This document shows, piece by piece, positions 6,201 through 9,200 of a stretch of DNA of 64,000 nt; the first letter of the stretch is position 1; each line of letters opens with the position of its first letter. The stretch lies in NCBI RefSeq assembly GCF_013167455.1, contig NZ_CP038328.1; one strand, 5' to 3'. The DNA is from Escherichia coli O157:H7 (GTDB lineage: Bacteria > Pseudomonadota > Gammaproteobacteria > Enterobacterales > Enterobacteriaceae). The position numbers were made by a program.

Positions 6201-9200
6201 TTGCCCGTGACGATCTTCCGGAAGGCGTTTACAACGAGCAGTTCAAAAAATGGGACCTCGGCGACATCCTCGGCGCGAAAGGTAAACTGTTCAAAACCAA
6301 AACCGGCGAACTGTCTATCCACTGTACCGAGTTGCGTCTGCTGACCAAAGCACTGCGTCCGCTGCCGGATAAATTCCACGGCTTGCAGGATCAGGAAGCG
6401 CGCTATCGTCAGCGTTATCTCGATCTCATCTCCAACGATGAATCCCGCAACACCTTTAAAGTGCGCTCGCAGATCCTCTCTGGTATTCGCCAGTTCATGG
6501 TGAACCGCGGCTTTATGGAAGTTGAAACGCCGATGATGCAGGTGATCCCTGGCGGTGCCGCTGCGCGTCCGTTTATCACCCACCATAACGCGCTGGATCT
6601 CGACATGTACCTGCGTATCGCGCCGGAACTGTACCTCAAGCGTCTGGTGGTTGGTGGCTTCGAGCGTGTATTCGAAATCAACCGTAACTTCCGTAACGAA
6701 GGTATTTCCGTACGTCATAACCCAGAGTTCACCATGATGGAACTCTATATGGCTTACGCAGATTACAAAGATCTGATCGAGCTGACCGAATCGCTGTTCC
6801 GTACTCTGGCACAGGATATTCTCGGTAAGACGGAAGTGACCTACGGCGACGTGACGCTGGATTTCGGTAAACCGTTCGAAAAACTGACCATGCGTGAAGC
6901 GATTAAGAAATATCGCCCGGAAACCGACATGGCGGATCTGGACAACTTCGACTCTGCAAAAGCGATTGTTGAATCTATCGGTATCCACGTTGAGAAGAGC
7001 TGGGGTCTGGGCCGTATCGTTACCGAGATCTTCGAAGAAGTGGCAGAAGCACATCTGATTCAGCCGACCTTCATTACTGAATATCCGGCAGAAGTTTCTC
7101 CGCTGGCGCGTCGTAACGACGTTAACCCGGAAATCACAGACCGCTTTGAGTTCTTCATTGGTGGTCGTGAAATCGGTAACGGCTTTAGCGAGCTGAATGA
7201 TGCGGAAGATCAGGCGCAACGCTTCCTGGATCAGGTTGCCGCGAAAGATGCAGGTGACGACGAAGCGATGTTCTACGACGAAGATTACGTCACCGCACTG
7301 GAACATGGCTTACCGCCGACAGCAGGTCTGGGGATTGGTATCGACCGTATGGTAATGCTGTTCACCAACAGCCATACCATCCGCGACGTTATTCTGTTCC
7401 CGGCGATGCGTCCGGTGAAATAAGCATTACGTTATGCGCATAACCCCGGCAGATGTCGGGGTTTTTTAATTGTGCTGCGCGAAAGCAGACAACAATTTTC
7501 TTGCTTCACTATTGGCTGCCTGCATCACCATCCACGGACTGAACGCCCACGGCGTGGCATCAATACCGTGTAATACATCTGCTAAATCACACCATTGATA
7601 ATCCATCACTTCATCATCGTTGATCTGTAACGCACTGGTGGTGCGTGCGGCAAATACCGGACACACTTCATTTTCCACAATGCCATTCGGATCGGTGGCG
7701 CGATAGCGAAAGTCAGGATAGATAGATTCAGGAGGCGTAATTTCCACGCCAAGCTCATAACGGCAACGGCGGATCACCGCGTCTTCGTTGCTTTCTCCCA
7801 GTTGTGGGTGCCCACAAACCGAGTTAGTCCACACGCCAGGCCATGCTTTTTTGCTCAGTGCGCGGCGGGTAACTAATAATTGTCCTTTGGCATTAAACAG
7901 CCAACTGGAGAACGCGAGATGTAAGCGGGTGTCTGCCGTGTGTGCGGCATACTTTTCCAGCGTACCCGTGGGAACTCCCTGTGCATTCAATAAAATGACG
8001 TGTTCCGTTTGCATAATTTCTCACATGTAATTCTGATCACTCATCATTATAGATAATTGAAGAGTGAAATGATTAACCAAGTGAGCGTTTATCGACAACC
8101 GCCCGTTTTGAGCGGATGCCGACAGGTAAAAACCATTTAAAAAAGTAGCATCATATATTTGAAGCGACTTTCAATGGCCATTGCAACACAGTCAGAAATG
8201 ACAGGAATAGAGAGAGTAAAAAGCAACAGCAGACTGAATATAGCGCGCATTAAAAAATTCATATTATTCTCCATGCTCATTTTTCTTCAGCTTGCGCATC
8301 AGAAGCCACATACGTACTGTCCTGACTTTTAAATCTTTATCAGAGACGGATTCCTTCACCAGGTCAGCATGATGCTGATAGCCATTAAAGAAGACGTTCA
8401 GCACAACGGCGCTAAGGGTTGCGAGCATAATGCCGCTATGTAGCAGCGGTTGCAGTACGGCCGGTAACTTAGAAAAGAAATCGTGAGAGAGCGTTGGAGT
8501 CATGCCAACGCCGAGACTGATCGCCACAATATAGAGGTTGTAACGGTTGGTGGTGTAGTTACAGCGCGACAGAATTCGAATCCCTGTCGCCAGTACCATG
8601 CCGAACATCACCAGACCAGCGCCGCCCAGCACAAATTGCGGAATGGAGGCTACCAGCACCGCCATTTTTGGCACCATGCCAAACAGGATTAATATAATTC
8701 CCGAAGAAATACACACCCAGCGGCTATGAACGCGCGTCACGCTAACCAGGCCAACGTTTTGAGAAAATGACGTGTGGGGGAAGCTGTTAAACGTGCCACC
8801 AATCATTGTCCCTACGCCATCGACACGCAGCCCGCGAATAATATCGTGCGAAGAGAGTTTACGACCGACTATTTCACCCAGTGCCAGGAACATCCCCATC
8901 GACTCGATAAACACGATGATTAACACGGCAGTCATGGTCAGAATGGAAACGGGATCGAAAATCGGCATACCAAACGACATCGGGGTGACAATCGCAAACC
9001 ACGAGGCATCATGTAGCCCGGATAAATTGACTTCATTCATCATCCACGAAAGTAAAAAGCCAAATACAATCCCCAGTAATACGGCGACGTTGGACATAAA
9101 TCCTTTCGCATAGCGAGTAATGAGCAAGATAAAAATTAAGACGGCAAAGGAGATACCTAAATAAACGGGATTACCATATTGCGGATTCCCTTTACCTCCG

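What the first reader, a model, noticed from the sequence alone, without database searches (positions are those of the whole stretch)
8137..8262. 41-codon hydrophobic ORF between uacT and idi
An ATG one nucleotide after the uacT stop opens a 41-aa ORF with a hydrophobic core, possibly translationally coupled to uacT. It matches my recollection of a small K-12 protein (YqfG) but is invisible to the 60-aa ORF cutoff.
Basis: partly seen in the sequence, partly recalled or inferred. Interest (0 to 1): 0.25.

Follow-up and report, generated by a model that had tools for sequence, protein, structure and literature searches.

The report
Known small membrane protein gene yqfG
The 41-codon ORF is the already annotated E. 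coli gene yqfG, which encodes a small membrane protein placed directly behind the urate transporter gene uacT; it is real and conserved, but it is not a new discovery.

Summary
Window 8137-8262 (minus strand) is an ATG...TAA ORF of 41 codons that starts one nucleotide after the uacT stop. It is 100% identical to the RefSeq/UniProt protein YqfG (WP_001010156.1, YQFG_ECOLI).

An ORF of this length is not unusual by chance. The evidence that it codes comes from conservation:
- Variable sites are concentrated at third codon positions (4/5/19).
- dN/dS is 0.07-0.34.
- There are no indels across Escherichia.
- 38-41 aa relatives occur in Citrobacter, Kluyvera, Klebsiella and Enterobacter.

Published work shows that tagged YqfG constructs are cleaved by the intramembrane protease RseP. 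Its function is unknown.

Every family member examined lies directly 3' of a UacT-type permease gene, usually within -1 to +4 nt of its stop. All of those permeases carry the same C-terminal tail (VRTVRMWLLxRK), including paralogues only 42% identical to UacT. I infer that YqfG is a co-translated partner of the urate permease; this is untested.

Verdict: already known, low interest.

The parts
8137..8262 (-). yqfG CDS: 41 codons plus TAA, encoding a small hydrophobic single-helix protein
   Evidence: Searches give the sequence and translation. Searches give the RefSeq annotation at exactly these coordinates. Searches show purifying selection. One search gives an AF2 model with one helix, residues 3-40, pLDDT 85.6.
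8269..8272 (-). GGAG Shine-Dalgarno sequence for yqfG, 6 nt before the ATG, inside the uacT Gly-Glu codons
   Evidence: Read directly from the sequence. Purine-rich equivalents are seen in relatives.
8264..8266 (-). uacT stop codon TAA, with a 1-nt spacer (8263) before the yqfG ATG (8260-8262)
   Evidence: The junction gap is -1 to +4 nt in 8 of 10 distinct contexts.
8264..9712 (-). uacT (ygfU), the urate/H+ symporter gene directly upstream, presumably co-transcribed
8282..8326 (-). Codons for the UacT C-terminal tail VRTVRMWLLMRKLKK, a motif that co-occurs with YqfG-family ORFs
   Evidence: 13 loci have both tail and YqfG, 3 have the tail only, 73 have neither; the motif is conserved at protein level while synonymous sites vary; it is also present in permeases only 42% identical to UacT.
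8090..8124 (-). Stable hairpin 13 nt after the yqfG stop, with no U-tract; possibly a 3'-end or attenuator structure between yqfG and idi
   Evidence: -28.9 kcal/mol for the 106-nt stretch folded (8040-8145), z = -4.7; 14 pairs, 4 with compensatory changes across Escherichia and Citrobacter. The terminator scan did not call it.
8069..8140 (+). yqfH, an annotated 23-aa ORF on the opposite strand that overlaps the yqfG stop by 4 nt
   Evidence: Searches give the annotation. PMC6001520 lists it. Its frame is not conserved in other Escherichia.
8069..8098 (-). Reported constitutive sigma-70 promoter for idi (TTGTCG-18-AATCAT) between yqfG and idi
   Evidence: PMC3946193 table. The motif was located in the sequence.
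7466..8014 (-). idi, the downstream gene in Escherichia and Citrobacter; other genera have an fdhF-like molybdoenzyme gene here

Best explanation
This is yqfG, a genuine and already annotated gene. Shown: the sequence is identical to YqfG, and the reading frame is under purifying selection. It belongs to a 38-41 aa protein family in Enterobacteriaceae with invariant P20, R33 and F34. From the literature: tagged YqfG constructs (HA-MBP-, 3xFLAG- or HA-Met6-YqfG) are cleaved by the site-2 protease RseP in vivo (including by chromosomally encoded RseP) and in vitro, and TMHMM predicts a type II (N-in/C-out) single-pass topology. Inferred: yqfG is transcribed with uacT and is translated by ribosomes that terminate at the uacT stop 1 nt upstream, using a GGAG inside uacT. 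The peptide would therefore be made at the membrane next to nascent UacT. Most likely function (about 0.35 on its own): an accessory or regulatory partner of the urate permease, engaging its conserved C-terminal tail, with RseP setting its turnover. The invariant helix-breaking Pro20 may help make it cleavable.
For: Identity and annotation.

Coding signature: variable sites fall 4/5/19 by codon position (binomial P = 2e-4), there are no indels in 126 columns, and dN/dS is 0.07-0.11 within Escherichia and 0.19-0.34 against Citrobacter.

Family beyond Escherichia.

Synteny: the family HMM hits only ORFs directly 3' of the NAT permease, on the same strand, in all 23 hit loci (contexts). The start codon lies -1 to +4 nt from the permease stop in 8 of 10 contexts. 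The downstream gene varies (idi or fdhF-like), while the upstream permease is constant.

Permease tail: the motif VRT[VM]RM[WF]LL[LM]RK is present in all 13 YqfG-bearing loci, including three with permeases only ~42% identical to UacT, and absent from 73 loci that lack YqfG.

Hydrophobicity and structure: GRAVY is 1.41 and the best 19-aa window scores KD 2.18. AF2 gives a single helix.

Literature: RseP cleavage and predicted topology come from PMC4597795 and PMC10470546. yqfG is listed among known sORFs and quantified by Ribo-seq in PMC10746267, Table S8.
Against: No experiment links YqfG to UacT. Three tail-bearing permeases lack an intact YqfG (C. freundii L004, Pluralibacter L007, Serratia oryzae L005), so the permease can exist without it. 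The tail/YqfG correlation is confounded by phylogeny, because every positive is in Enterobacteriaceae. Two contexts have 66-88 nt gaps with their own Shine-Dalgarno sequence, so coupling is not obligatory. Topology is predicted only. The physiological meaning of RseP cleavage is unknown, and it was shown only on tagged constructs. Hemm et al. 2008, the paper I recall as reporting detection of the protein, could not be read here.
Confidence: 0.85

Rival explanations
1. YqfG works with the downstream fdhF-like molybdo/seleno-enzyme rather than with the permease, for example as a membrane tether. In Escherichia, where idi replaced that gene, it would be a leftover.
For: An fdhF-like gene starts 17-45 nt after the small ORF in Klebsiella, the Enterobacter-like locus, and the L095 and L097 contexts. 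Serratia oryzae has a YqfG remnant followed by an fdhF-like gene.
Against: The fdhF-like neighbour is absent in Escherichia, two Citrobacter and Kluyvera, yet YqfG there is under strong purifying selection (dN/dS 0.07-0.11). The permease is upstream in 10 of 10 contexts, against about 4 of 10 for the enzyme downstream.
Confidence: 0.08
2. YqfG is a cleavable Sec signal peptide plus an ~18-aa periplasmic peptide (DCVAMAIESRFKYMMLLF) ending in an aromatic residue, acting as a secreted or envelope-signalling peptide.
For: The N-terminus has a signal-peptide-like layout: an n-region with conserved R6, a 13-residue h-region, P20, then V-I-S/D in E. coli and A-I-S/E or V-Q-A/A in relatives. The RseP papers chose YqfG because it resembles signal peptides. 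The C-terminus is almost always F or W.
Against: Small residues at -3/-1 are not consistently present (PAVQQA, PAVQYA, PAVRQA). AF2 models one uninterrupted helix 3-40. N-terminally tagged HA-MBP-YqfG accumulates at about full size without RseP, which argues against efficient signal peptidase cleavage.
Confidence: 0.05
3. Only the act of translating yqfG matters, not its product: a cis-acting ORF that keeps ribosomes on the uacT 3' region or hairpin and so tunes mRNA stability or read-through into idi.
For: The ORF abuts uacT tightly, a conserved hairpin lies 13 nt after the stop, and there is no canonical terminator.
Against: The amino-acid sequence is constrained (dN/dS well below 1; invariant P20, R33, F34 at 26-54% overall identity). 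The downstream gene differs between genera.
Confidence: 0.04
4. YqfG is a type I toxin-like membrane peptide, in the manner of Hok, Ibs or Ldr, held in check by antisense transcription (yqfH strand) and by RseP.
For: It is small, hydrophobic and an RseP class I substrate alongside HokB and HokE. There is an annotated ORF on the opposite strand at its 3' end.
Against: It has no promoter of its own and sits in fixed synteny behind a permease across genera. There is a single copy in the window. No Rfam antisense sRNA was found, the yqfH frame is not conserved, and no toxicity is reported in the RseP papers for YqfG constructs.
Confidence: 0.02
5. It is a chance ORF with no product.
For: ORFs of this length are common: 213 in the window, with P about 0.07-0.12 per start codon.
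Against: All of the conservation evidence, the RefSeq and UniProt annotation, and the experimental literature argue against this.
Confidence: 0.01

Closest known systems
YqfG of E. coli K-12 (UniProt YQFG_ECOLI, WP_001010156.1; K-12 coordinates 3032817-3032942)
   Same: The 41-aa sequence is identical, and so are the position between uacT and idi, the strand, and the start and stop codons.
   Different: Nothing differs at protein level. The window's DNA differs from the K-12 sequence printed by one synonymous base (CTG vs TTG, codon 12), the same difference seen in the K-12-sized locus L002.
Small membrane proteins that partner with transporters or membrane complexes (KdpF with KdpABC, AcrZ with AcrB, MgtS with MgtA, CydX with cytochrome bd). 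This comparison rests on my own knowledge.
   Same: YqfG is under 50 aa and forms a single hydrophobic helix. Like kdpF and cydX, its gene sits in the operon of the putative partner, with a tight and conserved gene junction.
   Different: No physical or functional interaction with UacT has been shown. There is no sequence similarity to any of these proteins, and no Pfam or NCBIfam model matches.
[quoted passage not shown]
   Same: YqfG was cleaved by RseP in all four published assays, and it has a signal-peptide-like layout with a helix-breaking Pro.
   Different: It is not derived from a secretory precursor. The physiological consequence of its cleavage is unknown, and unlike the Hok proteins it is not reported to be toxic.

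Membership tests
YqfG (E. coli small protein) | Amino-acid sequence identical or near-identical to YQFG_ECOLI | tested here: met
   It is 100% identical over 41 aa. An exact look-up returns 'Uncharacterized protein YqfG ... YQFG_ECOLI', and RefSeq gives WP_001010156.1 at the same coordinates.
YqfG (E. coli small protein) | Location between uacT and idi, on the same strand as both | tested here: met
YqfG (E. coli small protein) | The protein is actually synthesised from the native locus | not testable with these tools
   I recall chromosomal SPA-tag detection in Hemm et al. 2008 (cited in PMC4597795), but the paper is not held. yqfG is quantified by Ribo-seq as a 'previously known sORF' in PMC10746267, Table S8.
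Single-pass small inner-membrane proteins | A hydrophobic segment long enough to span the bilayer | tested here: met
   The best 19-aa window scores KD 2.18 (residues 4-22) and GRAVY is 1.41. AF2 gives a helix over residues 3-40.
Single-pass small inner-membrane proteins | Membrane integration and N-in/C-out topology shown experimentally | not testable with these tools
   Topology is a TMHMM prediction only. [quoted passage not shown]
RseP (S2P) substrates | RseP-dependent cleavage in vivo and by purified enzyme | not testable with these tools
   Reported for tagged constructs of the identical K-12 protein: class I, positive in 4 of 4 assays (PMC10470546; PMC4597795).
Transporter-associated accessory microproteins | Conserved genetic linkage to the transporter gene | tested here: met
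   In 10 of 10 distinct contexts the ORF is directly 3' of a UacT-type NAT permease. The permease tail motif co-occurs with it: 13 loci with both, 3 with tail only, 73 with neither.
Transporter-associated accessory microproteins | Physical binding to the transporter, or an effect on its activity | not testable with these tools
   No data were found in the literature searches.
Bacterial lipoproteins | Lipobox [LVI][ASTVI][GAS]C at the end of the signal peptide | tested here: not met
   E. coli has I-S-D-C, with Asp at -1. Cys25 is not conserved in the family and is replaced by G, A or S.
Sec signal peptide with type I cleavage site | Small neutral residues at -3 and -1 after the h-region, conserved across homologues | tested here: inconclusive
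   The rule fits in some members (VIS|D, AIS|E, VQA|A) but not in others (VQQA, VQYA, VRQA). The tagged full-length protein is stable without RseP.
Type I toxin-antitoxin toxins | Own promoter with an antisense RNA, plus toxicity on expression | not tested
   No Rfam sRNA was found. The gene has fixed operon synteny behind a permease. Toxicity could not be assessed here.

The most novel reading that the evidence does not exclude
YqfG-family microproteins are dedicated, co-translated subunits or regulators of a subclass of NAT/NCS2 urate permeases. That subclass is marked by the C-terminal tail VRTVRMWLLxRK, within the enterobacterial anaerobic urate-degradation locus. RseP proteolysis of the microprotein would provide a way to tune urate uptake.
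Probability: 0.3. Interest if true: 0.4.

Novelty: already known. Interest (0 to 1): 0.12.

Why it matters
For a genome scan this is a correct re-discovery of an annotated small gene, and it shows that a 60-aa ORF cutoff hides real genes. Two observations go modestly beyond that and may give a function-less microprotein a testable hypothesis. First, YqfG belongs to a family that sits directly 3' of a UacT-type urate permease in every context examined. Second, those permeases share a protein-level conserved C-terminal tail even at 42% overall identity. UacT lies next to the gene cluster for anaerobic uric-acid degradation by gut bacteria, which is of current interest for host urate homeostasis.

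Tried and rejected
- **Family models:** Pfam and NCBIfam scans of YqfG, YqfH and two homologues gave no meaningful family.
- **Word-indexed protein search:** it returned only Escherichia and Shigella hits. This first suggested a genus-restricted gene, but tblastn on UacT-anchored loci and the profile search corrected that.
- **Lipoprotein reading:** rejected, because there is no lipobox and the Cys is not conserved.
- **Terminator after yqfG:** the scan found none. The hairpin there has no U-tract.
- **RNA families:** Rfam found nothing near the locus.
- **Papers not held:** Hemm 2008, Hemm 2010, Fontaine 2011 and the 2020 EcoSal review. Supplements of the Weaver 2019 preprint and the Mg-stress preprint are also not held. 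Direct expression evidence therefore rests on citation, on my recollection, and on one Ribo-seq table.
- **UacT-linker-YqfG AF2 prediction:** considered but not run, because the tool returns no PAE or coordinates, so an interface could not be judged.

Full report
**Observation.** On the minus strand, window 8262-8137 reads ATG AAT TTT ... CTT TTT TAA. This is 41 sense codons that translate to MNFLMRAIFSLLLLFTLSIPVISDCVAMAIESRFKYMMLLF.
- The uacT ORF (8264-9712, minus strand) ends with TAA at 8266-8264. One base (8263) separates that stop from the ATG.
- A GGAG at 8272-8269 lies 6 nt upstream of the ATG, inside the final Gly-Glu codons of uacT.
- idi (7466-8014, minus strand) follows after 122 nt, and lysS (5906-7423, plus strand) converges on it.

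An open frame of this length is not significant in itself. At local composition, P(41 sense codons) is about 0.07-0.12, and the window contains 213 ATG-ORFs of at least 41 aa.

**Identity.** A 501-nt query around the ORF matches 5,393 of 5,426 complete E. coli genomes, and 5,345 of them cover at least 80% of it.
- It is 100% identical to O157:H7 strains.
- In all 29 full-length rows of a sample spread across the ranking, the features under the match are 'uacT | yqfG: protein YqfG | protein YqfH or hypothetical protein | idi'.
- In an O157:H7 genome and a K-12-sized genome (4.63 Mb), yqfG (WP_001010156.1) maps exactly to window 8262-8137.
- An exact-sequence look-up returns 'Uncharacterized protein YqfG ... 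YQFG_ECOLI' on at least 1,000 contigs. Its 90% cluster includes 41-aa variants from Shigella dysenteriae and S. flexneri.

**Is it coding?** I aligned eight Escherichia loci: E. coli O157, a K-12-sized E. coli genome (L002), two divergent E. coli, E. albertii and three cryptic-clade strains.
- The 126 yqfG columns contain no indels.
- 28 sites vary, distributed 4/5/19 over codon positions 1/2/3 (binomial P = 2e-4). The flanking parts of uacT (9/0/43) and idi (10/3/32) show the same pattern.
- Nei-Gojobori dN/dS is 0.07 (E. coli vs E. albertii), 0.11 (vs the cryptic clade) and 0.19-0.34 (vs Citrobacter sp. R56).

**A wider family.** The word-indexed protein search found only Escherichia and Shigella.
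- I fetched loci that encode UacT relatives and ran tblastn on them. This showed a homologous ORF directly after uacT in Citrobacter sp. R56 (54% identity) and Kluyvera genomosp. 1 (32%).
- A profile of these sequences, searched against 1.84 billion representative proteins, gave 29 hits. The hits are 38-41 aa proteins whose named cluster members come from Citrobacter, Enterobacter and Klebsiella michiganensis/oxytoca/pasteurii.
- The 19-sequence alignment has invariant P20, R33 and F34, near-invariant R6, and a C-terminus that is almost always F or W.
- No Pfam or NCBIfam model covers the family.
- AF2 with this alignment predicts one continuous helix, residues 3-40, with mean pLDDT 85.6.
- GRAVY is 1.41, and the best 19-residue window scores KD 2.18.

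**Context.** An HMM of 16 family members was searched against every stop-to-stop ORF of all loci held at that point (L001-L098) plus the window.
- It hit only ORFs immediately 3' of the permease gene, on the same strand, in 23 loci. The only hit in the window is yqfG itself.
- Contexts retrieved through the small protein alone, and so unbiased with respect to neighbours, all show a Xan_ur_permease gene upstream.
- The start codon lies -1 to +4 nt from the permease stop in 8 of 10 distinct contexts. Kluyvera and one metagenomic lineage instead have 66-88 nt gaps with their own AGGA-type Shine-Dalgarno sequence.
- The downstream gene is not constant. It is idi in Escherichia and Citrobacter, and an fdhF-like molybdopterin enzyme in Klebsiella, the Enterobacter-like locus and two others.
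- The upstream permease is a UacT orthologue (80-99% identity) in some lineages, but only about 42% identical in Klebsiella, the Enterobacter-like locus and L095.
- Even these distant permeases end in the same tail, VRT[VM]RM[WF]LL[LM]RK[VL][KQ]K. Across 89 non-redundant loci, tail and YqfG co-occur in 13, the tail occurs alone in 3, and neither is present in 73. One of the three tail-only loci, Serratia oryzae, holds an apparent N-terminal remnant, MIRFWFAAALL.
- Codons in the tail differ freely at synonymous sites, so the constraint acts on the protein rather than reflecting recent recombination or an RNA element.

**Literature.**
- PMC4597795 (eLife 2015) describes YqfG as a small membrane protein of unknown function, predicted by TMHMM to be type II (N-in/C-out). 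It shows that HA-MBP-YqfG is cleaved by RseP but not by RseP(E23Q), and that helix-destabilising substitutions in residues 8-15 modulate the cleavage.
- PMC10470546 (mBio 2023) places YqfG in 'class I': it was cleaved with plasmid-borne RseP, with chromosomal RseP, as a 3xFLAG fusion, and by purified RseP in vitro.
- PMC10746267, Table S8, lists yqfG (K-12 3032817-3032942) among 'previously known sORFs'. Its Ribo-seq and RNA-seq values show no significant change under acid stress.
- PMC3946193 reports a constitutive sigma-70 promoter, TTGTCG-18-AATCAT, between yqfG and idi. This maps to window 8098-8069 on the minus strand.
- Hemm et al. 2008, which I recall as the original detection of YqfG by chromosomal SPA tagging, is cited in these papers but is not held.
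- uacT lies beside the recently characterised anaerobic, reductive uric-acid degradation cluster (annotation).

**Mechanism.**
- *Shown:* the gene, its constraint and its fixed position.
- *From the literature:* RseP cleavage of tagged constructs and the predicted topology.
- *Inferred:* co-transcription with uacT, and translation by ribosomes that terminate at the uacT stop, so the peptide is made at the membrane next to nascent UacT. From this I infer a role as an accessory or regulatory partner of the permease, possibly through the conserved tail, with RseP controlling its lifetime. The invariant Pro20 would favour cleavage.

I put about 0.35 on the partner role by itself. Identity and coding status are essentially certain.

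**Rivals.** The alternatives are a partner of the fdhF-like enzyme, a cleaved signal peptide that releases a periplasmic peptide, a purely cis-acting ORF, a type I toxin, and a chance ORF. All are less well supported, for the reasons given under each rival.

**Verdict.** The feature is an already known gene, so interest is low. The only new material is comparative: the family extends beyond Escherichia, it is tethered to a UacT-type permease in every context examined, and those permeases share a tail motif.

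Noticed in passing
window 8069-8140 (+): yqfH is an annotated 23-aa ORF (MINQVSVYRQPPVLSGCRQVKTI) antisense to the yqfG-idi spacer, overlapping the yqfG stop by 4 nt. 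Its frame is not conserved: it is 17 aa with a premature stop in cryptic Escherichia clades, frameshifted in a divergent E. coli (L071), and extended in E. albertii. It largely coincides with the hairpin and the idi promoter on the other strand.
   Followed up: partly
window 8090-8124 (-): A stable hairpin lies 13 nt after the yqfG stop. The MFE of the 106-nt stretch folded (8040-8145) is -28.9 kcal/mol, z = -4.7. It is conserved in Escherichia and Citrobacter, with 4 pairs showing compensatory changes. It has no U-tract and its 3' arm overlaps the reported idi -35 element. Its function is unclear; it could be a 3'-end stabiliser, an attenuator or a Rho-related structure.
   Followed up: partly
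window 8282-8326 (-); L089, L092 and L095 permease 3' ends: The UacT C-terminal tail VRTVRMWLLMRKLKK is conserved at protein level in permeases only ~42% identical to UacT. It is found in every locus that carries a YqfG-family ORF and in no locus with the more distant UacT homologues.
   Followed up: yes
L005 4443-4547 (Serratia oryzae): An ORF overlaps the uacT stop (ATGA junction) and begins MIRFWFAAALL like a YqfG N-terminus, but then diverges and runs into the fdhF-like gene. It looks like a degraded YqfG remnant.
   Followed up: no
L091/L092 4145-6298, L097 2112-4259; compare L089 4138-6285 and L095 4144-6300: In some lineages the fdhF-like molybdopterin enzyme gene after the small ORF is called as two genes (139 aa plus ~560 aa). 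In others it is called as one gene of 715-718 aa. This fits an in-frame TGA (selenocysteine) in the split cases. The codon itself was not checked.
   Followed up: no
window 12067-12555 (+): ygfS (4Fe-4S dicluster protein, next to ygfT in the urate-utilisation locus) carries an internal stop at codon 29 in this O157-type sequence. It is annotated as a pseudogene in the matching O157:H7 genome.
   Followed up: partly
window 41842-41915 (+): A tRNA-Gly(CCC) gene is the only tRNA and the only Rfam gathering-score hit in the 64-kb window.
   Followed up: no
window ~4798-5896 (+): prfB with its known programmed +1 frameshift lies just upstream of lysS, according to the annotation of the matching O157:H7 genome. 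The window coordinates were mapped from that locus and not inspected directly.
   Followed up: no
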